Source: a virus (taxonomy: Duplodnaviria > Caudoviricetes). Taken from it: 64,000 nt of DNA. The translations under genes and the position numbers were made by a program. Below the pieces are notes generated by a model. That model searched no databases, was not told the DNA's origin, and worked only from the letters and a program-made list of their open reading frames with translations. Where the stretch lies: positions 37,853-101,852 of IMG/VR virus record IMGVR_UViG_3300025270_000009; one strand, 5' to 3'. Shown in pieces: positions 21,731-53,580 of this stretch. How positions within the stretch are numbered: position 1 is the stretch's first letter; each line of letters starts with the position of its first letter.

Positions 21731-22091
21731 TTAGCCTGTTCTATAAGGGTTTTGGCGATTGTCTAACAAGTGCATTCATTAACTTTTCTTTTTTCTGACT
21801 TCGGCAATGGGTCAAGTAACGCTTCTCTGCAGCCCTTGTCAGTTCGTTCTGAGAGTCGGGTGGTCTGGTTCAAATTTATTGGTTAAGCGCCTTAAACTGG
21901 TGCAACCAGTTCTTTTCAAAACTTTACACTTTTGTGACTGCGGCCAATGCCACGAATTGACAGCCGGCTTTGAGCTTTTTGCTATACGGGTATAAGAGTC
22001 GATAACCTGGTGAGGCGGAAATTTGCCTAATTCCGTCGACCGGGTGATTTGGCTTGCTGTTTTGATTTGGCTGCTCGGGGAATTTTAGGCG

Positions 22092-22144
22092 TTTGGGTAT
22101 AAGGGTGAGTTTTCTGGTAGGCGGAAATTTGGGTATAAGGGTGA
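22092..22144 (+). repeat. 17-bp direct repeat tttgggtataagggtga
   Basis: Copies at 22092 and 22128; GGGTATAA core also at 21988, 27922 and 28020. Confidence 0.8.
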
Positions 22145-22247
22145 ATTTTTGATTGGCAGAAAATTTTGATTCCATCGGGGTCACGGCAGCTGAAAATCTC
22201 TAGGACTTTCAGTACCCGATTAAACTCTAATCATTCAATCGTTTTAA

Positions 22248-22379
22248 TCAATTCAGCATCATAATGCTATTACAAACAACAATCCCCGAAACGATCAAGC
22301 CGACAACGGATAATAAAGCGGCTTGTTTTAGTTGTTTATTGCGCTCTCTGCGCTTGATTCTCTTACTATAACGGCTCAT
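22248..22379 (-). CDS. small membrane peptide (43 aa)
   Basis: MSRYSKRIKRRERNKQLKQAALLSVVGLIVSGIVVCNSIMMLN; GGGAG RBS; ATGA overlap. Confidence 0.65.
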   Translation of the reverse strand: MSRYSKRIKRRERNKQLKQAALLSVVGLIVSGIVVCNSIMMLN

Positions 22380-22483
22380 AAAAACGCTCCCGATGACATA
22401 TAAGCTAGAGTAAAAGCAAACGGAACACCGACAACAACGAATAAAACGAATTGAGCGGCTTTCTTAGCGGTTTCTTTAATCAT
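22376..22483 (-). CDS. small membrane peptide (35 aa)
   Basis: MIKETAKKAAQFVLFVVVGVPFAFTLAYMSSGAFL; GGAG RBS. Confidence 0.65.
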   Translation of the reverse strand: MIKETAKKAAQFVLFVVVGVPFAFTLAYMSSGAFL

Positions 22484-22503
22484 TGCGAACACTCCGACCG
22501 ATG

Positions 22504-22533
22504 AAAAGAAAGAGCGGCACAGAATGCCGCTCT
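22504..22533 (-). terminator. intrinsic terminator
   Basis: agagcggca-cagaa-tgccgctct plus U-tract on minus strand. Confidence 0.65.
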
Positions 22534-22540
22534 GTTGCTC

Positions 22541-23218
22541 TTACTTGATATTGAATGCGGCTTTAAGCGTATTAAGCTTTTTAGTGTCCGCTGTCTCAGT
22601 CTCTAAAATACCGCCCCGACCGATCCAGTTGCCGAGCCCGATAAAAGCAAGTGACTTTAAAAACTCACGGCTTTGTGTCGCTGTCTTGTTGTCAATATGC
22701 TTTTGCAGCTTATCGACCGTGATCGCTTTCTTGTCGAAATTCTCTAAACAAAAACGGATCGCTTTTTCAAAGTTCGACAATTGCGGGTTGTATGTTTGCC
22801 CGTTCGCTTGTCGGGTTGTGTTCGCTTGATGTTTCGCTTTTTTCAGTGCGTTTTCTACGGTTTCACCGTGAAGAATGAAACATAAAGCGCTCATTTTTCC
22901 GTAGTTGTTGCGCTTTGCTTGCTCTGGATTTTTAGCGTGTTGTAATACGTCCGCTACTTTACCGGCAAAAGTGTAGTAGTTGTGTTGAGTAGCGGCTCGC
23001 TGTATAGCGTCAAAGTCGGCAGCGCTTTTGTCGGTTTCACTGATTTTTTGCGCTAGAGCTTCACGCTGCTTTGCTTGCTCTGTTGCAAACTCTGCAAAGC
23101 TCGGCTTTGTCTCTTCTGCTTTTTTCGCTGTCTGTTTGCGAGTAGCGGTTTTTTTCGCTGCTGCTTTTTTAGCGGTTTCTTTTGCTTGAGTTGCTTTAGT
23201 GTTTTTACGTTCTGACAT
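22541..23218 (-). CDS. hypothetical protein with K/A-rich N-terminus (putative pre-early DNA-binding protein)
   Basis: 225 aa; histone-like N-terminus; own operator-controlled promoter. Confidence 0.75.
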   Translation of the reverse strand: MSERKNTKATQAKETAKKAAAKKTATRKQTAKKAEETKPSFAEFATEQAKQREALAQKISETDKSAADFDAIQRAATQHNYYTFAGKVADVLQHAKNPEQAKRNNYGKMSALCFILHGETVENALKKAKHQANTTRQANGQTYNPQLSNFEKAIRFCLENFDKKAITVDKLQKHIDNKTATQSREFLKSLAFIGLGNWIGRGGILETETADTKKLNTLKAAFNIK

Positions 23219-23291
23219 AATAATTACTCTCTAAGTTTGATTGATTTTAAGCTGTATCGGCTCGGCTCTTTGTGCCGTGTCGATGATTCTT

Positions 23292-23319
23292 ATATTACAA
23301 CGCTGAGATATTCGATCAA
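23292..23319 (-). promoter_or_regulatory. promoter with operator (23292-23311)
   Basis: TTGATC..TG-TAATAT; operator atattacaacgctgagatat; AT-rich upstream region. Confidence 0.7.
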
Positions 23320-23539
23320 GTGCTTTTTATAGTTTTTTTTAATAAATTTGATTGTTTGATTACTTTTTAATCATTAGTATGTTTTTTAGTCATTCAGACA
23401 ATAAATATAAAGTTTTTGATTTTTTTCTATTGTATTTCAGCTAAAGCCGTGATAGTAACGCACGCACGTTAAATAAAAGTGCGAATCCTCGATGAGAACA
23501 CTCCTTATCCTCAACCACAGCCGTCACTTCTCTATACAG

Positions 23540-23810
23540 AATTCCAAGGACAAGCCCTCTCCCCTATGCTAATACAGCCTTTCCCTAACCCTGGCACAGC
23601 TCTCCCTGGCCATTCCTGTTGTCACAGCGCCAAGGTAACCAAGGCTGTTTTCTACAAATCCAAGGAAGCTCAGGTTTGCCCACGCTAACGCAGCCTTTCC
23701 CAAGTTTTACCAGGTCAGGCACTATATAGACCAAGGCAACCTTGGAGCCGGTGTGTGCTTACCAGTGGTCGGTCTATATCCCTACGCTAACGCAGCCATT
23801 CTTAAAATTT
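23540..23810. repeat. CCAAGG / CCTAYGCTAACGCAGCC motif cluster
   Basis: Motif copies at 23563, 23679 and 23781; ccaaggcaaccttgg at 23731. Confidence 0.75.
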
Positions 23811-23830
23811 GAGAGGATTGCCTGAAAAGG

Positions 23831-24026
23831 CGTGGCCGGCCAATGATAACGAAGATAACCAAAAGGACCGGCCGGCCACGATTGCCCGAAGGCAATTAGG
23901 GTTGGAGCGCTACTGAGTAAACTGAAGTAACAAAGAGAGAATGAAACCTCAGTAACGCCCCAAAAGTGGCGAGAAGGTGTAGACTGGACAGTAGTGCAAT
24001 GTGTGGGAAACTGTCTACACCTTCTC
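23831..24026 (-). ncRNA. structured RNA: three long-loop hairpins plus cUUCGg hairpin
   Basis: 11-, 16- and 14-bp stems with 28-30-nt loops; G-U wobbles and UUCG tetraloop only on minus strand. Confidence 0.7.
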
Positions 24027-24043
24027 TGAAAGAGTGACCACCA

Positions 24044-24292
24044 TCAGGCGGTCAAACGGGAATCTTGGGTAATTTTCAGCAAACCCTCATCCCTTTCAGC
24101 AGCAAGCATGAAATCAATAGCTTCAACCAGGGCCATGCTGAAAGTAAAGTAATGCTGCTCAGTTACTTTACGCTCCTGGTTAAGCGACGTTCTTAGCCTG
24201 AATTTATCCCCGACCTGTTTGATATGAGCAACCGCCTTATCACTGATATGCAGTTGCTCGCTCTCATCGGGGGTCTGGTAGACCCGCTTCAT
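24044..24292 (-). CDS. hypothetical protein
   Basis: 82 aa, GGAG RBS. Confidence 0.7.
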   Translation of the reverse strand: MKRVYQTPDESEQLHISDKAVAHIKQVGDKFRLRTSLNQERKVTEQHYFTFSMALVEAIDFMLAAERDEGLLKITQDSRLTA

Positions 24293-24293
24293 A

Positions 24294-24611
24294 TTAAGCG
24301 ACTCCGCTCACCACAGCCTGATAGCCTGTGAGCTTAGCGTTCTTTAAGCGCTCTTTTTGTGACACGAATGTACGGCTCTTAGTCAGCCCAAACAAACGTC
24401 TCTCACGCTCTGACAAGACACTGAACGGCTTAAGTCCTTCTTCTTGAAGAAACGCATAGCGTTGCTTATCCAACGTGAATGTCGCGCCATGCGAAAAGCC
24501 GTCTGACTTTAGTTGTTGTATCTGTTGAGCCGGTGTCATTGAAAGAAGAGCTTCCATGCTGACTGACAATTCCTTTTTGCTTTCACCGTTGCCAAAGATT
24601 GCTTGTTTCAT
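24294..24611 (-). CDS. hypothetical protein
   Basis: 105 aa, preceded by conserved leader. Confidence 0.75.
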   Translation of the reverse strand: MKQAIFGNGESKKELSVSMEALLSMTPAQQIQQLKSDGFSHGATFTLDKQRYAFLQEEGLKPFSVLSERERRLFGLTKSRTFVSQKERLKNAKLTGYQAVVSGVA

Positions 24612-24627
24612 TGTAAAATTCCTTCTG

Positions 24628-24715
24628 TTGCTTGCTTGTTTGCTGAATGTTGTTGAGCGATTTGCTGTCTCGCTTCAACGGTTTCTATATTACAGTGCTG
24701 AGATAGGGGAGCAAG
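24628..24715 (-). promoter_or_regulatory. leader/operator/promoter unit
   Basis: ttgcttgtttgctgaatg; operator 24687-24706. Confidence 0.75.
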
Positions 24716-24734
24716 CGAAGTTAAGAACTTAAAT

Positions 24735-24850
24735 CCCTACGCTTTCTAGCTCTACTCCAAGGACGCCTTGGTTTATACAGAACCAGTGGACGACAGGCAT
24801 TCCTACGCTAACGCAGCCAGTCCTAAAACCTGCCTTGGCAACCTTGAACC
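24735..24850. repeat. second CCAAGG-N3-CCTTGG / CCTACGCTAACGCAGCC cluster
   Basis: Copies at 24757 and 24802. Confidence 0.75.
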
Positions 24851-24916
24851 GGGTGAGAAACAAAAAAGGGCGACCGAAGCCGCCCAAACTTGCAGTGACA
24901 AGTTAAAAGACTCTGA

Positions 24917-25165
24917 TTAACGCTCGACCTCTGCGTAAACGTCCGAATCAACGTCCTGGCCAATTTCTTTCACAATATCGGTAGGAATAGGCATCAGAAA
25001 CTGAATTTTTCGTGAAATTCCGTCTTCAAACAAAACGTTTAAATGCTCTCCACCAACATATTTAATCTCCACCGGCTCCTGAGTAAACTGCTCTAACATT
25101 CGTCCGTCCACCAGATACGGTGTGGTGGTTTTCTTCATCACGTTTTTAAGGTGTTGTAGTTTCAT
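24917..25165 (-). CDS. hypothetical protein
   Basis: 82 aa; GAGG RBS; followed by UUCG terminator 24862-24885. Confidence 0.7.
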   Translation of the reverse strand: MKLQHLKNVMKKTTTPYLVDGRMLEQFTQEPVEIKYVGGEHLNVLFEDGISRKIQFLMPIPTDIVKEIGQDVDSDVYAEVER

Positions 25166-25172
25166 TCTTACC

Positions 25173-25505
25173 TCACAGTGTTATTTCTAAAAGTTCAAAT
25201 TCGAAGCTGTTGGGTGAAATGTGGTATTCAAAACCGAAGCTATCATCCAGTGCGTTTATCTCTAATGGCTTGAACACCTCCAAAGCGTTACGAGAAAACA
25301 TTGCCTTGATGTAACCCTTAAGCGTCAGCCCTGCGTCACCCGCTTCTTCACGCCAGTCTTTCTCCAGGTTTGGAGTGTGCTTCATAAGCCTTACCATAAG
25401 CTCGGGCAACGTATCTCTGTCATCGAGATCGGCAGAAAAGGTGTGCTTGTTCTCCGCATTTTCAATGTCTATCAAAACCAGCGTCTGTTGTGATTTAAGG
25501 TTCAT
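25173..25505 (-). CDS. hypothetical protein
   Basis: 110 aa; preceded by leader and operator 25540-25559. Confidence 0.75.
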   Translation of the reverse strand: MNLKSQQTLVLIDIENAENKHTFSADLDDRDTLPELMVRLMKHTPNLEKDWREEAGDAGLTLKGYIKAMFSRNALEVFKPLEINALDDSFGFEYHISPNSFEFELLEITL

Positions 25506-25691
25506 TACTCGTTCTCTCTTGCTTGCTGAATGTGAGTGTATATTACAACACTGAAATAGGCACTCAACAGCTTATCATAAACTATTTACCTCACAGCCGG
25601 CTTGGAATAGGAATAATTGTTTAGTCATTCGCTTGAACGCCTTTGTGTCAGTGTCATAATACACACTCATTCATAAAGAGAGAGAAAAACA

Positions 25692-25943
25692 ATGTCTGAA
25701 AAAGAGCCGAATTTCCTACGTGAAATCATGCAAGTGTTTATCCCGTCTACTCACAAATTTTATGAATTGAACGAGTTTGAGGACGGGAGCTTTAAAATTA
25801 CTGAGCAAACGATTGATGAAAAAATTGTAACAATTGAAGAAGCCGACCTTGTTGACTTCTACGGCGGCAAAACAATCAACTCTTACGAGAGTAAAGAAGA
25901 AGCTGTTGAGCAATTTAAGGAGCTGACATTCTCACAAATCTAA
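25692..25943 (+). CDS. hypothetical acidic protein
   Basis: 83 aa; TTGAAC..CATAAT promoter, AGAGAG RBS, UUCG terminator 25946-25972. Confidence 0.75.
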   Translation: MSEKEPNFLREIMQVFIPSTHKFYELNEFEDGSFKITEQTIDEKIVTIEEADLVDFYGGKTINSYESKEEAVEQFKELTFSQI

Positions 25944-26039
25944 GCAAGCGGCCTTCGGGCCGTTTCTTTTTTGTCAGCCGGCACCAAGGAAGCCTTGGTA
26001 TGAGTGGATTAAACAAAAAAGCGGCCGAAGCCGCCTTTC

Positions 26040-26261
26040 TCAGTCCGTTAATACATAGCAGTGCCAATAATCTCTCAAACTCACCTCTGCAATGCTCTGA
26101 TAACTTCTCATCATGGAAAAGTAATCATCCAGGTTATAAATAACGGCTTCAGGATGCTCAACCTCAACCGGCTCTTGGGTTAAGAAACTGGTTCCATCAA
26201 GCTCTTCTGCCTGTTCAAGCGTGTATTCGCTCTTAGGGAGTAATACAATTGTTGTTGCCAT
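26040..26261 (-). CDS. hypothetical protein
   Basis: 73 aa, last gene of operon, terminator 26015-26035. Confidence 0.65.
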   Translation of the reverse strand: MATTIVLLPKSEYTLEQAEELDGTSFLTQEPVEVEHPEAVIYNLDDYFSMMRSYQSIAEVSLRDYWHCYVLTD

Positions 26262-26263
26262 AA

Positions 26264-26515
26264 CTAATCCTTACCGATATTGACGTAAGTGACCCAAACC
26301 GTATCCAGGTCAATCGCCTCATCGTTACAGTCGTCCATAAACTGCGACAGAGTCATCACCTGAATATCGCAACACAGCGTATTACCTTCTTTGTTCACCG
26401 TCTCAGCAACCGCCTGAATGCTCTCAAACGGTCTGTCCTGGATTAGTTCGGCCACAGCCCGACCATCATTCACCCGAGCGGTTGGAATCAGTACTATATG
26501 CTTCTCAGACATCAC
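26264..26515 (-). CDS. hypothetical protein
   Basis: 83 aa, coupled; similar length and C-terminal W-x-x-YV to neighbour 26040..26261. Confidence 0.65.
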   Translation of the reverse strand: MMSEKHIVLIPTARVNDGRAVAELIQDRPFESIQAVAETVNKEGNTLCCDIQVMTLSQFMDDCNDEAIDLDTVWVTYVNIGKD

Positions 26516-26774
26516 GCTTCTCCTCTCTGGCCTTCACCCAACCGTAATGGTCGGCTATCGCCCTTAAAATGTTCAAAATCTCTTCTTCGCCTTTGAAAAA
26601 TCCAAAGATCGAATTGCCATGCTTAGATTGAATGTACCCCTCTAAAGCATTCACCCGATAAAAGCTGCCCTCCGGGTATTCCTCAGACAAAAACCGCCAA
26701 AAATCTGTCTCTACCATCGGAATGTTAGACGGATTGCCAGCCTTCATTTCTTCAAGAATTTTCTCTCTGTCCAT
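26505..26774 (-). CDS. hypothetical protein
   Basis: 89 aa, coupled. Confidence 0.65.
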   Translation of the reverse strand: MDREKILEEMKAGNPSNIPMVETDFWRFLSEEYPEGSFYRVNALEGYIQSKHGNSIFGFFKGEEEILNILRAIADHYGWVKAREEKRDV

Positions 26775-26777
26775 AGC

Positions 26778-27020
26778 CTACACCGCTGATAGTTCGTAAA
26801 TAACATGACCCTCACGCTCAGCCCAATCGACTAAGTGACGAGTCACCTCTGTCCAGTTCTTAGGAGCCGGTTTATCGCTTGGCCAACCGTCTCCTGCCCA
26901 AATCTCTTCCAGCTCTTCACCGTTATTCCAGTCACCGGCGATGAGAACGTTCGAGCTCTCATCCCAGTCACCAAAACAACTGATCCGGTGGCCACGATAG
27001 GTAATGACTGTTTTACTCAT
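26778..27020 (-). CDS. hypothetical protein
   Basis: 80 aa, GGAGG RBS. Confidence 0.7.
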   Translation of the reverse strand: MSKTVITYRGHRISCFGDWDESSNVLIAGDWNNGEELEEIWAGDGWPSDKPAPKNWTEVTRHLVDWAEREGHVIYELSAV

Positions 27021-27283
27021 GACGCCTCCGGATCGAAGTTAATGAACAGGTCGGCCACACTCTCGATAGCCACCCACATTTCATCAACGGTAAAGTCCTG
27101 GTAAGACTCAGCCGGTACCAAGTCACCGAAGTCGTTTGAACCATCGGGCATTTCATAAAGGGTCTTCAATGCCTGGTCAGCGGTTACCTCGTGCTCGGCA
27201 GGATTGTCACTGTCAGACACATTGTTGAAGAATAAAAGGAGTGAGCGCTTGTTGTAGGCTTCACGTATTTCATTGGCTGTCAT
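27017..27283 (-). CDS. hypothetical acidic protein
   Basis: Start reassigned to MTANE (27283), downstream of leader and operator 27319-27338. Confidence 0.7.
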   Translation of the reverse strand: MTANEIREAYNKRSLLLFFNNVSDSDNPAEHEVTADQALKTLYEMPDGSNDFGDLVPAESYQDFTVDEMWVAIESVADLFINFDPEAS

Positions 27284-27449
27284 AATAGACTCCACTTGCT
27301 GTTGCTGAATGTGCTTATATATTACATTGCTGAGATAGGCACGCAATAGCGACCGTTTATTCATATTCCTGCATAACTATCCACTATTTAAAACAAACCC
27401 TCGGGGATTTTTCTCGAAAACTGCATACCTACCCACACAAAGTGAATAA

Positions 27450-27780
27450 AACCCAAGGATTCCACGCATAAATACCCTATACAAACCCAAACCAACCAAG
27501 GACGCCTTGGATTAAACCCGACCTGCAGGTAACAGCCGGCCAAGGACTCTACATTCCTATGCTTTCATAGCCTTTCCCAAATTCTGACAGCCAAGGCTCT
27601 CTACAAACCTATGCTAACGCAACCAGTCCTGAATTCTGCTATAACTCCCTCACTCAATGTCGTTCCAAGAGCTTCACAGGCACGAGAACACGTCTAAAAG
27701 GGAAAACCTAAGCAACCATACCACCCAAGGGCTTACAATCGCTTACAGAGCGTGTCAGGCTTCCTTGGTTCAATCCCACA
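27450..27780. repeat. third CCAAGG / CCTATGCTAACGCA cluster
   Basis: ccaaggacgccttgg at 27496; motif copies at 27556 and 27608. Confidence 0.7.
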
Positions 27781-38794: not shown

Positions 38795-39305
38795 TTAATT
38801 CTGCCGCTGTCTCTTCAGACACGGTGTTCATGGTCAGACAATTGTGGTCAAAGTCGCTTTCGGCAACGGTAGCCACCTCATCATAGAAAACCGCCAGAGC
38901 GTCATCGAACGAAAGCGCTTTAACAATGGCCACAACAGACTTTTCATCTTTCTGAGCCACGTAGTACTTCTTAAGCTCCTCAAGTCGGCGCTCATTGGCA
39001 GCTCGAATCAGATAGTGAATTTTAGCCCCGATAGGCTTCGGATAATCAAGCTCTCTTAGAACATCAACCAGTCGAGCCCGAATAACTATTCTGTTGCCTG
39101 ACTCGTCAGCAAGTCTTTCACTTTGAAAGAAGACAACTTTACCCAAGTCATCTTCGAGATAACGAAAGACATCCAGAACGTTTTTGTAGTCACTCAAGGA
39201 CAATCCGCTAGGCTCCATCAACACCGACATTTCAAGGTCGGCACTTGGCTCATAAATAGCGCTTTCTTCGTCCGCCACTAAGAGCGGTAAGTCAACTTTA
39301 TACAT
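38760..39305 (-). CDS. hypothetical protein
   Basis: 181 aa, GAGG RBS. Confidence 0.7.
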   Translation of the reverse strand: MYKVDLPLLVADEESAIYEPSADLEMSVLMEPSGLSLSDYKNVLDVFRYLEDDLGKVVFFQSERLADESGNRIVIRARLVDVLRELDYPKPIGAKIHYLIRAANERRLEELKKYYVAQKDEKSVVAIVKALSFDDALAVFYDEVATVAESDFDHNCLTMNTVSEETAAELIDVGVPSNAKN

Positions 39306-39326
39306 TTAAACCTCACTCTTAGCATT

Positions 39327-39860
39327 TCATTCGTAGAAAGGAACACCGGCTTCACGCTTGATATTGACAAGCTTGTCGCCTAGACCACACCAACTTAGCT
39401 CTAAACTAGATAGACTCTCCTGTGACGACGCAATGCCACACTCAAAAAGAGTCTTGCGAATAAAGTTGGCAGCTTCACCACCGGAGCTTGCTTTTACAAC
39501 GGCACACACTGGCGTGTTTCGGCCTTCAACGAGATAGTGGATTTTGAATGCGGCAGACTCTCTATCAAAGATGCCTTTTACCAAGCCAATAAAAGACTTC
39601 AGCGAGTTGTGAGGCTGTCCCCAGTATTCTTCGAGAAGATCTTGTACGTTGGCTCGATAAGTTACCCCATCGTAACCAGCCTCAACAAAAGCCTGTTTGT
39701 CGGCATAGTCAGAGAAGCGGTGAAATAACCCCTTGAACTCTTCAAGTGTGTCGATAGTGATTTCACCTTCTGCAACCACAGTTTCACCGCTTATGCTTTC
39801 AGAAGGGTTGTAAAGATCTAAATCGTTAGAGCAAATATAAATAGCTGAATCAATTCTCAT
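39327..39860 (-). CDS. hypothetical protein
   Basis: 177 aa; leader and operator 39886-39905. Confidence 0.7.
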   Translation of the reverse strand: MRIDSAIYICSNDLDLYNPSESISGETVVAEGEITIDTLEEFKGLFHRFSDYADKQAFVEAGYDGVTYRANVQDLLEEYWGQPHNSLKSFIGLVKGIFDRESAAFKIHYLVEGRNTPVCAVVKASSGGEAANFIRKTLFECGIASSQESLSSLELSWCGLGDKLVNIKREAGVPFYE

Positions 39861-39945
39861 GTTGTTACCTTGCTTGTTGCTGAATGTATTTCAATTTTGA
39901 CATACAGTTTTAGGCAGTCAATACCGAACAAGACAAAAATTGCCT
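39857..39945 (-). promoter_or_regulatory. cassette boundary unit
   Basis: 39857-39906 identical (50 bp) to 45853-45902. Confidence 0.9.
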
Positions 39946-40492
39946 ACGCAAAGTAGGTCGATTTGCCGCATTTAAGGTTCAGCTCCAATATATTGAAGGC
40001 TGTTACAGGGTCAAACTCGGTATAGTTTTGCGTTAATTGACTCACTCTATTTATGCTTTCGTCAATGGCGTCATCAGGTATTAGCATAACCATTTCGTTT
40101 GCCCTTATTTTGTCGATGACAGCCGAGCCGTTACCCATGTATGGCAAAATCTCTCGATCAGGGTCCAACCGGCTTTCGCTCACAGGCAGTCCCTTCATAA
40201 CCTCTGCATCAACATCAAATATCACCAGGCGGATGCCGGCCACGTAAAAGTTGCACAGCATATCCCTAACCGGCTGAGACAAGCGAATGTCGTTTGGCGC
40301 CTTGTCTTCGGAAATCTTCACCATAGTTTGAAATTCATCATTCTGTATCACAGCAATGCTTTCAGACGATCCTCTCTTGAAGTCCAAATCCGTCAGGTAA
40401 TCAATGTCAAAGGCTGATAGGTGCAACATCGACAAGGTTACGCATACGTTCGTTTCAAGTTGACGCTTGTAGGCTGCTTTTGTATCAATCAT
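39944..40492 (-). CDS. hypothetical protein (DUF5983-like)
   Basis: LSMLHL..LVIFDVDA..LP motifs. Confidence 0.55.
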   Translation of the reverse strand: MIDTKAAYKRQLETNVCVTLSMLHLSAFDIDYLTDLDFKRGSSESIAVIQNDEFQTMVKISEDKAPNDIRLSQPVRDMLCNFYVAGIRLVIFDVDAEVMKGLPVSESRLDPDREILPYMGNGSAVIDKIRANEMVMLIPDDAIDESINRVSQLTQNYTEFDPVTAFNILELNLKCGKSTYFA

Positions 40493-45182: not shown

Positions 45183-45856
45183 TATTTGCTCTCCTCGATG
45201 AATTCAGAAAGGTTTAATTCGTTGAAGTCTTCAGGCAGCTTCATATTCACTGCTGCATCGACCAGTGCGGTTTGAGCTTCCAGAAGAATGCTGTCGATAA
45301 ATTTGAGCTTTTCTTTCATCTGCTCCTGCATAACGCTGAACAGGGATTGATGGTCGTTGCTGAAAATCCGATATTCCTCAGTAAGCATTGGCAGCGTTAC
45401 GTTGAAGCCGGAATCCAATTCATCCTCTATGAATAGGTCGGTGTAAATCTGAACACACTTGCCTTTGTAGAAGTCCTTACCGAACATTTCTTTGATGACT
45501 TCTTTAAGAGCCAATGTTTCTTTCACACCGAACTTTGGTAAGTCGGCTATGTATGGAAAGTAGGATTCGCATGAGAGATCCGGCGCCAACCCGTTTATCT
45601 TTTCGATAATGTCTCGGTCACGCTCTTCAAGGATAATGAGGTTAGACTCAACGTGATTCTCAATGAGATCTCGCAAATCTCCAATGTCAGCGGCGCAATG
45701 CTCGCTCTTAAAGGCGATAAGCAGACTGTCCTCTGAAATATCACCATTCGCACAGGCGTGTATCGCACGATAAGCCTCAAGTGTGCCACCTGGATAAGTC
45801 GTCTCGATAATGAAGTGTTTCATTGCCATTTTGATAGCGGCATCTAAATTAGTCAT
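45182..45856 (-). CDS. hypothetical protein
   Basis: 224 aa; leader and operator 45882-45901. Confidence 0.7.
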   Translation of the reverse strand: MTNLDAAIKMAMKHFIIETTYPGGTLEAYRAIHACANGDISEDSLLIAFKSEHCAADIGDLRDLIENHVESNLIILEERDRDIIEKINGLAPDLSCESYFPYIADLPKFGVKETLALKEVIKEMFGKDFYKGKCVQIYTDLFIEDELDSGFNVTLPMLTEEYRIFSNDHQSLFSVMQEQMKEKLKFIDSILLEAQTALVDAAVNMKLPEDFNELNLSEFIEESK

Positions 45857-45953
45857 GTTGTTACCTTGCTTGTTGCTGAATGTATTTCAATTTTGACATA
45901 CAAAAAGAGGCGGTCAATGCCGCCTCTTTAAATAATTGCCAAGTTATTATTTT

Positions 45954-46493
45954 CTAACCAGGTTTTTCTTCAACCGTAATAGGTTCAACGTTTAGGTTTA
46001 ATGGTTGGTCGCTAATGAACGCCTTCAAATCTTTCAAGCTTAATAGTGCATTGCTATTGGCATCGAAAAAGTAATCTTTATTGCAAACACCATTTCCGGC
46101 GTTGTAGAGCCCATTTAGGCTTGGAGCTGTTCGCACCACATCACTATGAATACCTGACTCATCAATCTTGTCAGGTGGCGTCATGTTGTTGCAGATATTC
46201 ACCGGCGGACCCTTAGAAACAAAGTACCCAATGGCGTTGCCATTATCAGCCAGTACGTAGATATAGAACAGCTTGTTAGGCTGATCCATCCGCTTCATGT
46301 ATTCGGCTACCACCTGTCGAGTAACAAAGTTATTAACGTCAGGCACCGGCACTGCATGATTAGCCTTTGATGAAATTTGAGCTCTTTGTCGCTCTTGCTG
46401 TTGAGACGTCGACTCTTTGGCGTCACAACCGGCTAAGGCCAATGCCATGCCCAATCCGGCAATAGCGCTAACTACAACTTCTAATTTGCGCAA
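45954..46493 (-). CDS. lipoprotein
   Basis: LALAGC lipobox. Confidence 0.75.
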   Translation of the reverse strand: MRKLEVVVSAIAGLGMALALAGCDAKESTSQQQERQRAQISSKANHAVPVPDVNNFVTRQVVAEYMKRMDQPNKLFYIYVLADNGNAIGYFVSKGPPVNICNNMTPPDKIDESGIHSDVVRTAPSLNGLYNAGNGVCNKDYFFDANSNALLSLKDLKAFISDQPLNLNVEPITVEEKPG

Positions 46494-46909
46494 TGTGTTT
46501 CTCCTTCCACTTTAAGTTTTTCTGGTAAACGGTCGTCAAAAAAGCGACCTGATGTATAGCTCTTGCGAGCCTCGTTGTTGTACCGCATAACGTCTCCTGC
46601 AACCTGGGACTCCAATGCGGCAATGTTCGTGTAAATTCGAGAGAGGTCTTCTTCATCAGTCGTGACTTTTGCCAGCCTTTTCTGAGCCTTGAGAGACGCC
46701 TTTTTCTCGACCACTGTTGAGCACATATCGAAAAATTGCTCATAGCGTTGAATCCGGCTTTCCGCTGACTCAATTTGAACCTCTGCATTCACACGACCCG
46801 TCACTTCTGCCGTAAAATACCGCCAAGCCAAATGAGCAGCGGCAATCAACAAGATTAACCCGACAAAAACAACAAGAATCTTTGCCAATGCACGCTTTTC
46901 ACCTTTCAT
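46481..46909 (-). CDS. membrane-anchored coiled-coil protein
   Basis: N-terminal TM helix; operator 46987-47006 upstream. Confidence 0.7.
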   Translation of the reverse strand: MKGEKRALAKILVVFVGLILLIAAAHLAWRYFTAEVTGRVNAEVQIESAESRIQRYEQFFDMCSTVVEKKASLKAQKRLAKVTTDEEDLSRIYTNIAALESQVAGDVMRYNNEARKSYTSGRFFDDRLPEKLKVEGETHCAN

Positions 46910-47029
46910 TTCATACTTACCTCGCTGAATGTTAATGATTAAAAATAATCGTTGAAAAGAGCTTATACTTTGACGCTTGCCTGAGTATATGTCAACACTG
47001 AAATACTAATAAGCTCAAAAGTTAATTCC

Positions 47030-47098
47030 TCAAATGGCGAATATCAAAGCCAAAACGACAACGACAACAACAATCTTCAACTTCTCTTCCGCATCCAT
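47030..47098 (-). CDS. 22-aa membrane peptide
   Basis: MDAEEKLKIVVVVVVLALIFAI. Confidence 0.4.
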   Translation of the reverse strand: MDAEEKLKIVVVVVVLALIFAI

Positions 47099-47298
47099 AA
47101 ATCCGCCTAGTTTTTAACCAATAAAAGTATAAGAGTTAGACCCCTCGTTTGACCACATCGTAAAATGGAACATTTTACCACCCGTCTATTCCGAGAAGTC
47201 TTGATATATAAGGGTTGTAGGCAAACTGACGGCTGCTAAAATTTTGCAAACACCGCCTACGCTTGCCCACATTCTGCCCACATTTCGCACACAAAAAA

Positions 47299-47838
47299 TC
47301 AGAGCTCGTTGACAGGCACCGCCGCCATACCACAAACAAACAAATCAGCGCCCTTTTCACCCTTTTCAAAGAGCTCAAGTGCCCTTTCTTTTGTTGTAGC
47401 CACAAACGAATTAATCTCTTCGTCAAAGCGAATGCAGTAACCCTGCGCTCGCAACTTGGGACCAACCGTTTTAGTAACCGGCAGCACCTCGTTTGGCATC
47501 TGAGCTATGATCCGCTCAAAATCTGCTGAGGTCAGCTGTAAATGACCCTTTCGAGCCCTAACCAGTTTTTCAGCCAGTGCTCCGGTGACGGATTCGCTTT
47601 CTGACTCCATTCGAGACATCATAAGCTCAAGCTCTTTGTTCAGGTTCAACGCTTTGAACACCTTGAACAGCGTCTTTAACCGAACAGCCTCAGCTCGCTC
47701 AATAGCGGCAATTGACGGCTGTGACAGCCCAGTCATCGCCGCCAATTCTTTTTGTGACAGTCCGGCGCTTTTCCGCCGCTTTTGTATAAACGTGGCCAGA
47801 GCCTCAGAAAATTCTTCAAATTCCATGTTATCAACCAA
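47299..47838 (-). CDS. XRE-family HTH regulator
   Basis: RRKSAGLSQKELAAMTGLSQPSIAAIER. Confidence 0.85.
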   Translation of the reverse strand: MVDNMEFEEFSEALATFIQKRRKSAGLSQKELAAMTGLSQPSIAAIERAEAVRLKTLFKVFKALNLNKELELMMSRMESESESVTGALAEKLVRARKGHLQLTSADFERIIAQMPNEVLPVTKTVGPKLRAQGYCIRFDEEINSFVATTKERALELFEKGEKGADLFVCGMAAVPVNEL

Positions 47839-48364
47839 TGCTAGTTAAAAATTCAGAAGACATATTTGCCTTCAGTTTACTACCATCTAGCACCGCAATG
47901 CCAAGAGCCGGCATCAATTTTCTCATTTGAGTGGCTTGAGAATTCGCTGTACTCTGCTTCAGCCCTTTCTCCAAGTACACTTCAATAAGCTCTTTACGCT
48001 CAAATTCTTTTTTCTCTTTGAGGTGTTCAAGGGCAATCAATGTGTATCGAGACAAAGGTTTTCCGGCCTGAAGCGCTGCAATAGCGTTTTTCGCCTTGTC
48101 CTGGACTTTCTTGGGTAGGGACTCAATGTCGTAAGAGCCGGTTGAAACAGGCGCTTTCTTTGCGCTCTTTTTCTTTTCCGTCTCAGGCTTGGATTCGGCT
48201 TTCGCCTTTTTAGCCTGGCTTTTGGCACGAGCTTCATCAGCCTTCTTTTTTGTTTCGGCTTTCTTCTCTTGAAGCTTAGCTTCGTCTTCCGGTTTAGTGG
48301 TGGGCTTCGACGCTCCAATTTCTTCCTGAAGCTTGTCGATTTCTGCTAATAGATCGTCTGACAT
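47831..48364 (-). CDS. Lys-rich hypothetical protein
   Basis: 177 aa; leader and operator 48394-48413. Confidence 0.7.
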   Translation of the reverse strand: MSDDLLAEIDKLQEEIGASKPTTKPEDEAKLQEKKAETKKKADEARAKSQAKKAKAESKPETEKKKSAKKAPVSTGSYDIESLPKKVQDKAKNAIAALQAGKPLSRYTLIALEHLKEKKEFERKELIEVYLEKGLKQSTANSQATQMRKLMPALGIAVLDGSKLKANMSSEFLTSIG

Positions 48365-48464
48365 GATACACCTCTTGCTTTTGCTGAATGTTTGTATTTC
48401 GATGCTGATATACTAAACGATCCGAGTAGGCAATCAAGCGGTTTTTGATTTTGTTTTTTCCAAT

Positions 48465-48553
48465 AAAAAACCGCCTTCCCAAGCAAAAGAAAGGCGGTCT
48501 ACATTCAGCAATAGCAAGCAAGGTTTTACAAGAAGTGCAAAATCACGCTTACT
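48465..48553 (-). ncRNA. candidate master antisense sRNA (sRNA-4) complementary to conserved early leader
   Basis: TTGTCG-17-TGTAAT promoter; 25-nt seed at 48524-48500; terminator ACCGCCUU..AAGGCGGU plus U-tract. Confidence 0.75.
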
Positions 48554-48617
48554 TTGCTCATTACAGCATAAACCCTGGGCTGCGACAAGTTTTAATGCTT
48601 AATGCTGAATATCGGCT

Positions 48618-49058
48618 CTATTCCTTCTTAGCCTTTCGCTCTTTGTAAGACCGATAAAGCTCTTTTGCCTTTTCCGTTCCGCCCTGAAGCAATGGCTTGC
48701 TAAAGTAAAAAGGAACAATCCAGACCAGAATCGAGTTAATGTTTTTATCCACGATCTCCTGCAAGTCCTTCACAAAGTCAGCGTCAAATACAGCACCACC
48801 GGCTAAGAACAATACACAGACCAACCAAGCAAAAATCACAGCCACTACAATCGCTCGCCTTGAGACGTTCTGCCCCTCAGTGTTCTTCATGTACTTACCC
48901 AGGCTGTCGATAAACTGCCGGTTCGCCTCTACCCGCTCTTGATCGCCAAAATGAAGCTTGTCCATTCCTGATGAAACAGTGTCAAAGACGCCCTTCGTTG
49001 ACTCAGGTGTTCCGAACATAGTACCGAATACGTGTTTAATGCCATTCCACAAACTCAT
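48618..49058 (-). CDS. holin-like membrane protein
   Basis: Amphipathic N-terminus, 2 TM segments, basic C-terminus; operator 49102-49121 upstream. Confidence 0.55.
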   Translation of the reverse strand: MSLWNGIKHVFGTMFGTPESTKGVFDTVSSGMDKLHFGDQERVEANRQFIDSLGKYMKNTEGQNVSRRAIVVAVIFAWLVCVLFLAGGAVFDADFVKDLQEIVDKNINSILVWIVPFYFSKPLLQGGTEKAKELYRSYKERKAKKE

Positions 49059-49121
49059 AAAAAAATACCCCTGTTAATGAATAACAGAGGCATTTTATCA
49101 ACTATCTCAGTATTGAGATAC

Positions 49122-49364
49122 CTAAGTGTAACGAGAAATCTTCTGGTGCGACTTCAATACCAACTCCCAGGCGGTCATTAAAATCAACCAAATGCCGCAA
49201 GCAATCGAGAACAAGCCGAACAGAAGCGAATATCTGGCCAATAGCTCAAAAACATAACCATACCCGCCAAACGCTTCTTCGTTCCACTGGCCAAACACGC
49301 CCAAAGGTATGCTTGCCAGTGTAAACATGACACCAAATAACGTGAGCTTTATTGCGTCTCGCAT
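49122..49364 (-). CDS. membrane protein
   Basis: 2 hydrophobic segments. Confidence 0.55.
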   Translation of the reverse strand: MRDAIKLTLFGVMFTLASIPLGVFGQWNEEAFGGYGYVFELLARYSLLFGLFSIACGIWLILMTAWELVLKSHQKISRYT

Positions 49365-49927
49365 GAAAGTTCCTCCAAGTCTAACTTAAAATAGCCTTTC
49401 TTAAGGCCGTAAATGAGAGCGTCCATCATTTTCTCGGTATCGTACCAAGCTCGGTGAGCGCTAACCTCATCAAAATCTATCCGACACGCCCGACAAAGCT
49501 CAGCCAGTTTTGGCACCTTGCCGTTAGGAGTAGCCCATCTGCCGTTTTGCATCGTACAGAAGATCTCAATATCCGGCATTTCGAGTTTCACTTTGTTCAT
49601 CATGTGGTACATGAACGGCGCATCGAAATTGGCATTGTGAGCCACAAAAACGTCACAACCGTTAATTATTGACTTCACTTTGGGCGCAATCTCATGCCAC
49701 TCCGGAGCACCCTTTACCATGTCCGGTGTGATACCTGTTATCTCCTGAACCTTTTGCGGTATGCTGCGCTTCGGATCAACAAGTGTCGACCACTTCTTTC
49801 GGTCAACGGCCTCCATTGTCTCGGTGTCGAGTTTGACAATGCTTATGGCAATCTCAGTTACCATGTGACCGTCATCTGCATCGAAACCTGTGGTCTCTAA
49901 ATCCGTTCCGAATAATTTAAGTATCAT
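49349..49927 (-). CDS. DEDDh 3'-5' exonuclease (DnaQ-like)
   Basis: DLETTG, AHNANFD, HRAWYD. Confidence 0.92.
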   Translation of the reverse strand: MILKLFGTDLETTGFDADDGHMVTEIAISIVKLDTETMEAVDRKKWSTLVDPKRSIPQKVQEITGITPDMVKGAPEWHEIAPKVKSIINGCDVFVAHNANFDAPFMYHMMNKVKLEMPDIEIFCTMQNGRWATPNGKVPKLAELCRACRIDFDEVSAHRAWYDTEKMMDALIYGLKKGYFKLDLEELSCETQ

Positions 49928-50363
49928 ATTTTTCCCTCAACTTTTTGACCACGTTTTTAAAGCGCTTACAGGCGTCACTGGAATCGCTTATGTTGATTGA
50001 CTTCACCGGCTCCGAGATCAAAATGCGCATTTCGCTCGGAATGTAGTTTATGTGGTATGGGCCAGCCCTAACGGTGTCCGTTGATTGACCCACAACCTCT
50101 TTATTAAACTCGTGAAGCACGTTAATCAAAAAGTCGTCCTTGTCGTATCCGTTCAATACCGAATACAGTGCGTGAATAGCTTCATAACCGGCGTTGGTGG
50201 ACATATTGCCAGCCTCAACAGCCAGGCAAATGTTCTCAATCTGTCCGGTTATCTTTCTCTGAATGCCGTCCTGAAACTGTTCGAAGTCTTCTTCAGCGAT
50301 TTTAAGGCGCTCTCTCAACCTCTCTATTTCAGTGATTGACTCCAGTTCTTTCATGTCACTCAT
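49917..50363 (-). CDS. hypothetical protein
   Basis: 148 aa; leader 50371-50391; operator 50402-50421. Confidence 0.7.
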   Translation of the reverse strand: MSDMKELESITEIERLRERLKIAEEDFEQFQDGIQRKITGQIENICLAVEAGNMSTNAGYEAIHALYSVLNGYDKDDFLINVLHEFNKEVVGQSTDTVRAGPYHINYIPSEMRILISEPVKSINISDSSDACKRFKNVVKKLREKYDT

Positions 50364-50424
50364 TGCTCTTACCTTGCTTGCTATTGCTGAACGACTTAAT
50401 ACTATCTCAGCAATGAAATACTAA

Positions 50425-51084: not shown

Positions 51085-51145
51085 AGTTGTTACCTCAAAC
51101 AGCAAAAAGGGGCACGAATGCCCCGACATTAACTTGTTTAAACGA

Positions 51146-52090: not shown

Positions 52091-52098
52091 AATTGCCT

Positions 52099-52707
52099 CT
52101 ATTGCTGTAATGTTTTTGTTTGCTGTTTTGGGTAATCTTTCCCTGCTTCAATCACGGCATCAATCGACTGCTCGTAATTGTCGTGGTACTCAATTGCGTA
52201 AATGGCGTGAGAGAACTCATCAAAGTCCGCCACGTCACAGGGAATCATATCGAACGCCACTGTCGAGAAATGGTCAAGGTTCTGATAACGAACTTCATCC
52301 GGTGACCCAGTGCTTTTGTAGTCCACCGATGATGCGTGTACCGCCTCAACTCTTCCCGATCTAAATGCTGCATCCCAGGCACCCGGTCCACCGATGACAA
52401 ACCACTGCTTATCAAGCCAACGGTTCATATTGGTGAAAGCCTCCAGGCTTTCTGCATAAATGACGGTTTCGCCATTCTCCTGCACCTCAGTGATACCGTC
52501 AAAGCCACTGGAAAGAACGACATTGATACGGTTTGGCAAAGGAAATTTTGGTAACCCCATGAAAGTGCCTTTGCCCATAATGACAACCTGGTTCTTCGTT
52601 GTCTCTTTGAAAAGCTTCAGCTCTTCAGAAATGTGCCAGGGTAGGCGGTCACCTACCCCAACAACATATTCCTCACCGAAAGCCATTATGACTCTCAACC
52701 CCTTCAT
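52099..52707 (-). CDS. folA: dihydrofolate reductase
   Basis: [28 protein letters not shown]. Confidence 0.9.
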
Positions 52708-53567: not shown

Positions 53568-53580
53568 ACTTCCTCCTACG

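What the first reader, a model, noticed from the sequence alone, without database searches (positions are those of the whole stretch)
22205..23485. 1.3-kb zone almost devoid of CCA/CCT/TGG/AGG, abutting a CCWWGG-rich zone
Reading base by base I found only two CCW/WGG trinucleotides in 22205-23485: 22625 (an obligatory Trp codon) and 22925 (a Pro codon). CCG/CGG remain common, and even the RBSs avoid AGG. Tens would be expected. From 23487 CCT/CCA/CCAAGG become very dense. The avoidance spans three genes and non-coding DNA, so selection acts at DNA level. Inference: CCW/WGG is the target of a modification or binding protein (ejection stop, packaging modification or host restriction) that must be absent from the first-expressed DNA.
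Basis: partly seen in the sequence, partly recalled or inferred. Interest (0 to 1): 0.8.

Follow-up and report, generated by a model that had tools for sequence, protein, structure and literature searches.

The report
Short-motif-free early zone in phage genome
A 1.3-kb stretch of this marine phage genome has been purged of the triplets CCA/CCT/TGG/AGG, and related phages of Pseudomonas and Rhizobium hold a stretch at the same place with no CC or GG at all; the likeliest reason, not proven here, is that this DNA must stay invisible to some DNA-cutting or DNA-binding activity.

Summary
Window 22205-23485 holds 2 CCW/WGG where about 62-64 are expected. These are the three longest CCW/WGG gaps of the whole 101.8-kb genome.

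Selection maintains the void. Four homologous loci, with protein identity from 96% to about 46% and nucleotide identity down to 57%, keep only Trp codons, plus the same single Pro codon (CCA) in the closest one. An unrelated extra gene inside the zone of one relative is also site-free. A distant relative with the same gene order has no void.

The feature is general. It lies beside a conserved box, A(A/G)GTC(C/T)TAGA, and on its other side meets a block dense in the motif. All five Nickievirus phages of Pseudomonas have about 1.1 kb with zero CC/GG, and the proteins encoded there lack Gly, Pro and Trp. Rhizobium phages RHEph10 and B1VFA and 19 of 62 IMG/VR loci also have the void.

What reads the motif is not identified. 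My best reading (about 40%) is that this is a pre-early, probably first-entering segment kept free of the short target of a DNA-attacking activity, as with T5 first-step-transfer DNA. CC and CCA are known type I-F PAMs. The physical ends of the genome, the host and the function of the 225-aa protein remain unknown. I found no description of such a void in the papers searched.

The parts
22205..23485 (.). CCW/WGG-free zone (the void): 2 sites where about 62-64 are expected
   Evidence: Conserved in L001, L002, L003 and L006.
22541..23218 (-). Gene for a 225-aa all-helical protein with a Lys/Ala-rich basic N-terminal tail. It has one Trp and three Pro, and no known family.
   Evidence: (no Pfam or PHROG match). 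AF2 pLDDT is 58 and there is no PDB fold match. Homologs are P0001-P0005. Similarity to nickie gp019 is weak (hhalign E 1.4e-3, probability 18%).
22376..22492 (-). 38-aa ORF with a hydrophobic core suggesting a membrane peptide (not run through a predictor). It is read as conserved in L001, L002 and L003 and has the RBS CGGAG.
   Evidence: read from the printed sequences. 0 sites against 6.1 expected.
22248..22379 (-). 43-aa ORF with a hydrophobic C-terminal half (not run through a predictor), present in the window and L001 only, RBS CGGGAG
   Evidence: 0 sites against 3.5 expected.
22511..22533 (-). Intrinsic terminator hairpin after the 225-aa gene
   Evidence: 10-pair stem followed by a T run. 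The sequence is conserved in L001-L003.
23292..23319 (-). Candidate sigma-70 promoter TTGATC-16 nt-TAATAT with an A-rich upstream stretch. The hexamers are conserved in the relatives, and the promoter is duplicated in L001.
   Evidence: Read from the sequence. It is below the threshold of the consensus scan. Inferred, not shown.
22192..22209 (-). Conserved box AAAGTCCTAGAGATTTTC at the void's border
   Evidence: The same box borders the void in nickie, hairong, RHEph10, B1VFA, Cyrano and IMG/VR loci.
21985..22163 (+). Three GGGTATAAG iterons just beyond the box. GGGTATAA occurs only 5 times in the genome; the other two are at 27922 and 28020.
   Evidence: Nickie has three CCCCTTACACAACC iterons at the same relative position and nowhere else in its genome.
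23487..24040 (.). Non-coding block dense in CCW/WGG (101 per kb). It has six CCWWGG, three 30-nt direct repeats and a 14-nt perfect inverted repeat, and it forms the inner border of the void.
   Evidence: CC/GG-hyperdense blocks lie at the same border in nickie, RHEph10 and B1VFA.

Best explanation
The zone is a conserved module of a large group of about 100-120-kb siphophages (SSU5, Nickievirus and RHEph10-like). It holds a promoter, a helical protein of about 185-225 aa, a terminator and, in the marine lineage, one or two small ORFs with hydrophobic cores. Its DNA is kept free, on both strands, of a very short CC-core motif. The motif is CCW in this marine lineage and every CC/GG in the Pseudomonas and Rhizobium lineages. 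I propose that this DNA is exposed alone, or first, to a DNA-attacking activity that reads a 2-3-nt motif. Lacking the motif, it survives and expresses its product, which then makes the rest of the genome safe or lets it enter. This is the logic of T5 first-step-transfer DNA carried to an extreme. The box would then be at or near a genome end, and the motif-dense block would be the inner limit of the exposed segment. The best-matching known reader is a CRISPR PAM: type I-F uses CC, and a CCA variant is reported. A frequent-cutting nickase of the Nt.CviPII (CCD) kind is the alternative. Shown here: the void, its maintenance by selection, its fixed position beside the box, and its variation between lineages.
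For: 1. Cost per site. In five marine homologs only Trp codons survive, plus one Pro codon (CCA) in this window and its 96% relative. Each gene scores z of about -7, although nucleotide identity falls to 57% and 31-68 conserved residues have changed codon. In Nickievirus, and in B1VFA, the encoded proteins have no Gly, Pro or Trp at all. This fits a mechanism where any single site is harmful, not a bulk physical property.
2. The constraint is positional and acts on DNA. Both strands are depleted. The extra L001 gene is site-free, 0 against 13.8 expected. The void stays beside the box although the gene points toward it in the marine phage and nickie and away from it in RHEph10, B1VFA and Cyrano.
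3. The specificity varies between lineages and the void can be absent. It is CCW here, all CC/GG in Nickievirus and Rhizobium phages, and weak and partial (CCA tolerated) in SSU5 and Cyrano. It is absent from L007 and G001, which have the same gene order.
4. This phage relies on target avoidance. CCATGG, AATATT, ATGCAT, CATATG, CGATCG, CATCTC and GCAGGC all occur 0 times where 26-41 are expected.
5. Precedents. T5 and BF23 resist restriction-modification, CRISPR and Ssp systems provided the targets are absent from first-step-transfer DNA, and a repeat-rich non-coding region borders that DNA (PMC10644984). The leading injected region decides sensitivity to Type I restriction (PMC12455610). The type I-F PAM is CC, with a CCA variant (PMC8482600). 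CC is mildly depleted genome-wide in P. aeruginosa phages (PMC12174588).
6. Relatives have fixed ends with long terminal repeats. B1VFA has a 3,605-bp repeat and V1VFA-S a 3,939-bp repeat (PMC12509600). Nican01 is classed 'DTR (long)' (PMC11256456).
Against: No physical end was mapped. Metagenome contigs bridge the zone, and the IMG/VR 'DTR' contigs examined are only 127-bp assembly overlaps. The position of the published terminal repeats relative to the box is unknown. A CC core shared by phages of alpha- and gammaproteobacteria, with GC from 0.45 to 0.66, fits poorly with host-specific CRISPR types. Type I-F is, from memory, uncommon in Rhizobium, and I did not test this. That favours a reader carried by the phages themselves. 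CCG is enriched in the marine void, so a plain CC PAM is excluded there. T5 first-step-transfer DNA shows no such void. The 225-aa protein has no recognisable anti-defence fold. The host is unknown. No expression data exist.
Confidence: 0.4

Rival explanations
1. The reader belongs to the phage. A virion or ejection protein, or another phage DNA-binding or DNA-cutting protein, grips or cuts CC/GG-containing DNA. The void is then the stretch that must pass or stay free. Examples are DNA that slides in before an injection brake engages at the motif-dense block, or DNA spared by a phage-borne nuclease that shreds host DNA.
For: The CC core is shared by phages of very different hosts. In every lineage inspected (this phage, nickie, RHEph10, B1VFA) the void abuts a motif-dense block. 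How T5 DNA escapes its own A1-dependent DNA degradation is an open question (bioRxiv 10.64898/2026.04.02.716235; PMC10644984). All members of the group examined here carry a conserved cluster of two ParB-like nuclease-domain genes and ATPase genes.
Against: No such protein was identified. The void module itself encodes only a small helical protein, plus small hydrophobic ORFs in the marine lineage. Relatives with the same gene order lack the void. The tolerated triplets drift between lineages, which is more typical of arms-race specificities.
Confidence: 0.2
2. The void is a terminal repeat, or its end, without priming sites. The phage's own DnaG-like primase would start at a CC-core triplet. 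A terminal stretch without such sites stays single-stranded after replication and helps ends anneal into concatemers.
For: Primases recognise triplets (established knowledge for T7, T4 and DnaG). The genome encodes a DnaG-like primase, a gp32-like single-strand-binding protein, a 5'-3' exonuclease and a ligase. Relatives have long terminal repeats (PMC12509600).
Against: A single site would cost little, so removal of Gly, Pro and Trp from proteins is hard to explain. The void (0.85-2.3 kb) does not match the published repeat lengths (3.6-3.9 kb). Relatives with the same gene order lack the void. There is no precedent.
Confidence: 0.08
3. The void insulates the module from the phage's own early-gene regulator. 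The operator-like sites are CCAAGG-N3-CCTTGG, whose outer triplets are exactly CCA, AGG, CCT and TGG. The zone, beside the largest cluster of these sites, would be purged of partial sites so that its promoter escapes repression or spreading.
For: 18 of the genome's 23 CCWWGG lie at 23544-27763, mostly in pairs 9 nt apart in intergenic DNA. The avoided triplets equal the operator half-site ends. The zone's promoter carries no such site.
Against: Sequence-specific regulators do not require removal of 3-mers. L007 carries CCAAGG clusters upstream of the homologous gene and has no void. In Nickievirus and Rhizobium phages every CC/GG is removed, well beyond any operator.
Confidence: 0.08
4. The constraint acts on RNA or translation, for example escape from a motif-specific endoribonuclease (a UGG-cutting MazF has been described, from memory) or avoidance of Shine-Dalgarno-like sequences.
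For: The void roughly matches a transcription unit. The 146 nt upstream of the promoter are not significant on their own. The ribosome-binding sites avoid GG.
Against: Both CCW and WGG are absent from the sense strand, with 1, 0, 0 and 1 of CCA, CCT, AGG and TGG left in the zone. The void persists when the gene is inverted relative to the box. About 450 nt of non-coding DNA after the terminator in nickie are also CC/GG-free.
Confidence: 0.04
5. The zone is a foreign insert, or the product of a local mutational bias, and has no function.
For: The zone's GC is lower than its surroundings (0.40 against 0.46 here; 0.45 against 0.56 in nickie).
Against: The void is kept through 43% nucleotide divergence, with purifying selection on the protein. 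The expected deamination products are not enriched. The borders are sharp and coincide with conserved elements. The void recurs in many lineages.
Confidence: 0.02

Closest known systems
T5 / BF23 first-step-transfer (pre-early) DNA and its injection stop region
   Same: An early module must lack the targets of host nucleases, because T5 resists restriction-modification, CRISPR and Ssp systems only if the targets are absent from this DNA (PMC10644984). It is bordered by a long non-coding region rich in direct and inverted repeats. The genomes are siphophages of about 100-120 kb with long direct terminal repeats, as in relatives B1VFA and Nican01. The nucleotide-metabolism gene set is similar (RNR, ThyA, DHFR, an SbcCD-like pair).
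   Different: T5 first-step-transfer DNA is about 9-10 kb with 17 genes and shows no short-motif void. Here the module is 0.85-2.3 kb with 1-3 genes and is free of a 2-3-nt motif. No A1 or A2 homolog was found: the 225-aa protein matches no Pfam or PHROG family. Two-step entry and a terminal position are not shown here.
Leading-region motif avoidance in T7-like phages (Murciavirus with the Mme2I Type I system, PMC12455610)
   Same: The location of a target in the first-injected DNA, not its presence in the genome, decides sensitivity. The leading regions are variable and encode anti-defence functions.
   Different: In that case single bipartite Type I sites are lost. Here every occurrence of a 2-3-nt motif is removed, which reshapes the amino-acid composition of the encoded proteins.
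Genome-wide PAM depletion (PMC4246573; CC for type I-F in P. aeruginosa phages, PMC12174588)
   Same: A 2-3-nt motif is read on either strand. CC is the canonical type I-F PAM, and CCA is a reported type I-F variant (PMC8482600), matching the CC and CCW voids.
   Different: Known PAM depletion is mild and genome-wide. Here it is total, local and sharply bounded. The host and its CRISPR type are unknown. CCG is tolerated in the marine lineage. The CC core is shared across hosts in which type I-F is not expected.
Frequent-cutting nicking-modification systems such as Nt.CviPII / M.CviPII (CCD) of chlorella viruses (PMC3017599)
   Same: This shows that a DNA enzyme can read a CC-core 3-nt asymmetric motif with a degenerate third base. 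Such a system is virus-encoded and, from memory, is used against host DNA.
   Different: No homolog was identified here; only a Dam-like methyltransferase was found among the ORFs scanned. Chloroviruses protect their DNA by methylation, not by motif avoidance.

Membership tests
T5-type first-step-transfer (pre-early) segment | Lies at the leading end of the virion DNA, within a long direct terminal repeat | tested here: inconclusive
   Contigs bridge the zone. The IMG/VR end repeats examined are 127-bp assembly overlaps. Relatives have 3.6-3.9-kb terminal repeats, but their position is unpublished (PMC12509600, PMC11256456). A conserved box plus iterons at the border is suggestive only.
T5-type first-step-transfer (pre-early) segment | DNA transfer pauses after this segment until its proteins are made | not testable with these tools
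   This needs time-resolved entry experiments.
T5-type first-step-transfer (pre-early) segment | Free of the targets of host nucleases | tested here: met
   2 CCW/WGG against about 62-64 expected. That this motif is a nuclease target is inferred, not shown.
T5-type first-step-transfer (pre-early) segment | Bordered by a non-coding region rich in direct and inverted repeats | tested here: met
   23487-24040 has three 30-nt direct repeats, a 14-nt perfect inverted repeat and six CCWWGG.
T5-type first-step-transfer (pre-early) segment | Encodes A1/A2-type proteins | tested here: not met
   The 225-aa protein has no Pfam or PHROG match and no fold match.
CRISPR PAM avoidance | The avoided motif equals the PAM of a CRISPR system of the natural host | tested here: inconclusive
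   The host is unknown. The motif class fits type I-F CC or CCA and type I-B CCW (PMC8482600, PMC4556805). CCG is tolerated here.
CRISPR PAM avoidance | Host spacers target the phage but not the void | not testable with these tools
   No spacer collection was available.
Restriction-site avoidance (classical restriction-modification) | The avoided words are 4-8-bp recognition sites | tested here: not met
   The avoided unit in the zone is a 3-mer, or a 2-mer in Nickievirus. Classical hexamer avoidance exists separately across the whole genome.
SSU5 / Nickievirus / RHEph10-like siphophage group (the genome as a whole) | Gene order: helicase divergent from two ParB-like genes, ATPase genes and the terminase, together with a nucleotide-metabolism module | tested here: met
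   A RepA-like protein, a ParA-like protein and a Pol III alpha subunit are present.

The most novel reading that the evidence does not exclude
The void is the footprint of an undescribed DNA-acting system with 2-3-nt CC-core specificity that acts at the very start of infection in a widespread phage group. The system could be a phage-borne shredder of host DNA, or an injection brake that grips CC/GG DNA. In that case SSU5-, Nickievirus- and RHEph10-like phages use a two-step genome entry in which only the CC-free end is in the cell at first. This would also offer a worked answer to the open T5 question of how first-entering DNA escapes the phage's own DNA destruction.
Probability: 0.25. Interest if true: 0.9.

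Novelty: new variant of a known kind. Interest (0 to 1): 0.82.

Why it matters
Removing a 2-3-nt word completely from 1-2 kb of coding DNA, to the point that the encoded proteins contain no Gly, Pro or Trp, is one of the strongest DNA-level constraints I know of in a phage. It points to a module that any single hit would disable. It gives a simple sequence signature for finding the critical early, and possibly first-entering, DNA and its likely anti-defence or takeover gene in a large, poorly studied group. That group includes SSU5-like phage-plasmids of enterobacteria, where the signal is weak and partial, and biocontrol phages of Pseudomonas syringae. Culturable members (nickie, Nican01, B1VFA, RHEph10) make the question directly testable.

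Tried and rejected
- DNA and protein searches of the phage collection with the zone and the 225-aa protein found nothing.
- Scans of IMG/VR, JGI metagenomes and GTDB genomes with the protein profile found nothing. A GTDB scan with the helicase found nothing, so the host was not identified.
- A search with the conserved box pattern in IMG/VR found nothing.
- The homolog search with the 152-aa neighbour found only the 97% relative.
- Structure: AF2 gave pLDDT 58, with no Foldseek PDB match at E <= 0.001. The Atlas gave only weak leads to winged-helix proteins.
- Sequencing runs: only Logan contigs of marine metagenomes hold the sequence, and no RNA holder is listed. The contigs bridge the zone, so nothing can be said about ends or expression.
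- Looking for physical ends: the GenBank Nickievirus and SSU5-like records examined start at conventional points, not at the box. The IMG/VR 'DTR' contigs G001 and G005 have only 127-bp overlaps. The B1VFA record carries no copy of its terminal repeat, and no boundary repeat about 3.6 kb from the box was found. The supplement of PMC11256456 gives no terminal-repeat coordinates.
- Rejected readings: protective hypermodification at CCW, because CCATGG and CCTAGG are still avoided; a plain CC type I-F PAM for the marine lineage, because CCG is enriched; a deaminase-type mutational origin, because the expected products are not enriched.
- T5 itself has no void.
- Stenotrophomonas phage BUCTxx99 showed no void in the 20 kb fetched.
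Full report
**The observation**

The window is the last 64 kb of a 101,852-bp phage contig whose ends overlap by 168 bp, that is, a circular assembly. In 22205-23485 only two CCW/WGG occur. They are CCA at 22625 (a Trp codon on the minus strand) and TGG at 22925 (a Pro CCA codon on the minus strand). The genome carries 50 such sites per kb.

The three longest CCW/WGG gaps in the genome (562, 423 and 300 nt) are these adjacent stretches; the next longest is 149 nt. AGG/CCT is 0 against 30 expected and CCA/TGG is 2 against 35. CCG/CGG, CGC/GCG and AGC/GCT are enriched, so G+C is partly kept through other words.

Mononucleotide shuffles give 61.9 sites and dinucleotide-preserving shuffles 32.1; neither ever reaches 2 or fewer. 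Resampling synonymous codons of the 225-aa gene with the genome's own codon usage gives 31.2 +/- 4.1, with a minimum of 16 in 20,000 trials, against 2 observed.

**Anatomy**

The zone holds three minus-strand ORFs:
- 225 aa at 22541-23218.
- 38 aa at 22376-22492.
- 43 aa at 22248-22379.

There is a terminator hairpin after the first gene (22511-22533). The upstream region is AT-rich and carries a conserved TTGATC-16-TAATAT promoter candidate (23319-23292). The ribosome-binding sites read AGAGAG, CGGAG and CGGGAG, so none contains WGG.

One border is a conserved box, AAAGTCCTAGAGATTTTC (22192-22209, minus strand), followed by three GGGTATAAG iterons. The other border is a 554-nt non-coding block (23487-24040). 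It carries 101 CCW/WGG per kb, six CCWWGG, 30-nt direct repeats and a 14-nt perfect inverted repeat.

The 225-aa protein is all-helical with a Lys/Ala-rich basic tail. It has no Pfam, PHROG or PDB-fold match.

**Genome context**

Nearly all genes lie on the minus strand. The genome encodes:
- class I RNR, ThyA, DHFR, dUTPase, an SbcCD-like pair and a RuvC-like protein;
- a Pol III alpha subunit, a gp32-like protein, a 5'-3' exonuclease, a RepA-like and a ParA-like protein;
- an ATP-dependent ligase, a DnaG-like primase, a Dam-like methyltransferase and PhoH;
- a helicase divergent from two ParB-like genes, ATPase genes and the terminase.

This gene order, together with 41-45% helicase identity, links it to Pseudomonas Nickievirus phages, Rhizobium RHEph10-like phages and the enterobacterial SSU5-like phage-plasmids. 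The sequence is held only by marine metagenome runs.

The genome also shows strong classical site avoidance. CCATGG, AATATT, ATGCAT, CATATG, CGATCG, ACATGT, GTATAC, CATCTC and GCAGGC all occur 0 times where 19-41 are expected.

**The void is maintained by selection**

The 225-aa protein has few relatives: P0001 (96% identity), P0002 (71-73%), P0003 (58-60%), P0004 (46%) and P0005 (30%). In the first four loci the void is present. Each gene keeps only its one or two Trp codons, plus the Pro codon CCA in L001, which this window shares. Each scores z of about -7. Nucleotide identity to the window falls to 0.71, 0.65 and 0.57, and 61-68 conserved residues use a different codon.

In L001 the zone is longer, at 1.78 kb. 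A duplicated promoter and an unrelated 108-aa gene have been inserted, and that gene has 0 sites where 13.8 are expected. The constraint therefore belongs to the place, not to one protein.

The distant relative L007 has the same order of CCAAGG clusters, promoter, gene, terminator, box and iterons. It carries a normal 49 sites per kb. The pressure is therefore specific to some lineages.

**Generalisation**

I ran a scan, blind to the motif, for the longest gap of any 2-4-nt word in every locus held. It found the same phenomenon elsewhere.

- Phage nickie has 1,137 nt with no CC or GG at all (about 150 expected; genome GC 0.55-0.56). Nican01 has 1,083 nt, phiK7B1 1,115, ZY21 1,108 and hairong 1,125. 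The 184-192-aa proteins encoded there, and a second annotated ORF of 107 aa, contain no Gly, Pro or Trp. The ribosome-binding site is again of the GAGAGA kind.
- Rhizobium phage RHEph10 has 6 CC/GG in 1,154 nt against 168 expected. B1VFA has 851 nt with none, and its 199-aa protein has no Gly, Pro or Trp.
- Of 73 loci scanned, 21 have a strong void: 19 of the 62 helicase-anchored IMG/VR loci (2.5-6 kb beyond the helicase, genome GC 0.46-0.66) plus nickie and RHEph10. The other three Nickieviruses meet the same criterion, and B1VFA, not in that scan, has 851 nt with no CC/GG. In locus L088, 0 sites occur in 1,000 nt where 159 are expected.
- SSU5 and Cyrano show only a weak, partial form (CC/GG at 0.4 of expectation, with CCA tolerated).
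- The tolerated triplets differ between lineages: CCG in the marine phage, and TGG and GGT in G005.

In nickie, hairong, RHEph10, B1VFA, Cyrano and several IMG/VR loci the same box, A(A/G)GTC(C/T)TAGA, sits at one border of the void, or of the partial void in Cyrano. In nickie, RHEph10 and B1VFA a CC/GG-hyperdense block sits at the other. This holds although the enclosed gene points toward the box in some lineages and away from it in others. That argues for a positional constraint on double-stranded DNA rather than on a transcript.

**Interpretation**

Four features must be explained:
- a recognition unit of 2-3 nt, read on either strand;
- a cost per site high enough to remove whole amino acids from proteins;
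- a sharply bounded segment of 0.85-2.3 kb tied to a conserved box;
- specificity that varies between lineages, with occasional loss of the void.

The closest established principle is T5. That phage resists restriction-modification, CRISPR and Ssp systems provided their targets are absent from first-step-transfer DNA. That DNA is followed by a repeat-rich non-coding stop region (PMC10644984). In marine T7-like phages, likewise, the leading injected region decides sensitivity to Type I restriction (PMC12455610).

Members of the present group do have fixed ends and long terminal repeats. B1VFA has 3,605 bp and V1VFA-S 3,939 bp (PMC12509600), and Nican01 is classed 'DTR (long)' (PMC11256456).

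The only well-known immune determinant as short as 2-3 nt is the PAM. Type I-F uses CC, and a CCA variant has been reported (PMC8482600). Type I-B of C. difficile uses CCW (PMC4556805). Mild genome-wide CC depletion is known in P. aeruginosa phages (PMC12174588). A frequent nickase such as Nt.CviPII (CCD) shows that enzymes with such specificity exist (PMC3017599).

I therefore favour a target-free, first-exposed pre-early module (confidence 0.4).

**What weakens this reading**

- The physical ends could not be tied to the box.
- The CC core is shared by phages of alpha- and gammaproteobacteria. A reader carried by the phages themselves, such as an injection brake or a phage-borne nuclease, is therefore a serious rival (0.2).
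- CCG is tolerated in the marine lineage.
- T5 itself has no void.

Weaker rivals are a terminal repeat free of priming sites, insulation from the CCAAGG-binding regulator, a constraint on RNA, and foreign origin. The evidence for and against each is listed in the rival explanations.

A protective modification at CCW is unlikely, because CCATGG and CCTAGG are still avoided genome-wide.

**Novelty and verdict**

I found no description of such voids in the Nickievirus, RHEph10/B1VFA, SSU5 or T5 papers that I read, nor in the full-text searches. The principle that early DNA should be free of targets is known. A complete, local void of a 2-3-nt word, conserved in position across a large phage group and strong enough to shape protein composition, appears to be new. 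The finding is real, general and unexplained at the level of mechanism, and it can be tested in culturable phages.

Noticed in passing
whole genome (G000:C1): There is strong genome-wide avoidance of many hexamers. CCATGG, AATATT, ATGCAT, CATATG, CGATCG, ACATGT, GTATAC, CATCTC/GAGATG and GCAGGC/GCCTGC all occur 0 times where 19-41 are expected. CCAGC/GCTGG occurs 49 times against 179 expected. CCWGG is over-represented (217 against 141).
   Followed up: partly
window 23544-27763: 18 of the genome's 23 CCWWGG (only CCAAGG and CCTTGG occur) cluster here. Most form pairs 9 nt apart (23630/23639, 23731/23740, 24757/24766, 25984/25993, 27496/27505) in intergenic DNA of the early region. They are probably operators of one regulator.
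   Followed up: partly
window 27922 and 28020, against 21988-22131: GGGTATAA occurs only 5 times in the genome, in two clusters 5.9 kb apart that flank the void and about 17 small early genes. This could mark a terminal repeat, but it is unproven. Nickie has only one iteron cluster.
   Followed up: partly
L001:9231-10000: The 96% relative carries a duplicated copy of the zone's promoter driving an extra 108-aa gene of unknown function. This gene is also free of CCW/WGG.
   Followed up: partly
L021:13100-13800 (Rhizobium phage RHEph10, NC_034248.1): The annotated plus-strand gp097 (226 aa) and gp098 look spurious. A minus-strand ORF of about 188 aa with an AGAGAGA ribosome-binding site fits the family of void proteins.
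   Followed up: partly
window 39300-40000 and 45800-54200: Independent metagenome contigs of this phage and of its 96% relative break near window position 39,400-39,900. Many ORFs of about 180 aa lie there, so this may be a paralogous or variable region.
   Followed up: no
genome 11376-13340 (outside the window; L009): A RepA-like initiator (PF10134) and a ParA-like ATPase are present. This suggests a phage-plasmid lifestyle like that of SSU5, although no repressor was identified.
   Followed up: no
L002:1266-1685: The 73% relative encodes an H-NS-family protein (Pfam PF00816 and PF22470). This hints at a gammaproteobacterial host.
   Followed up: no
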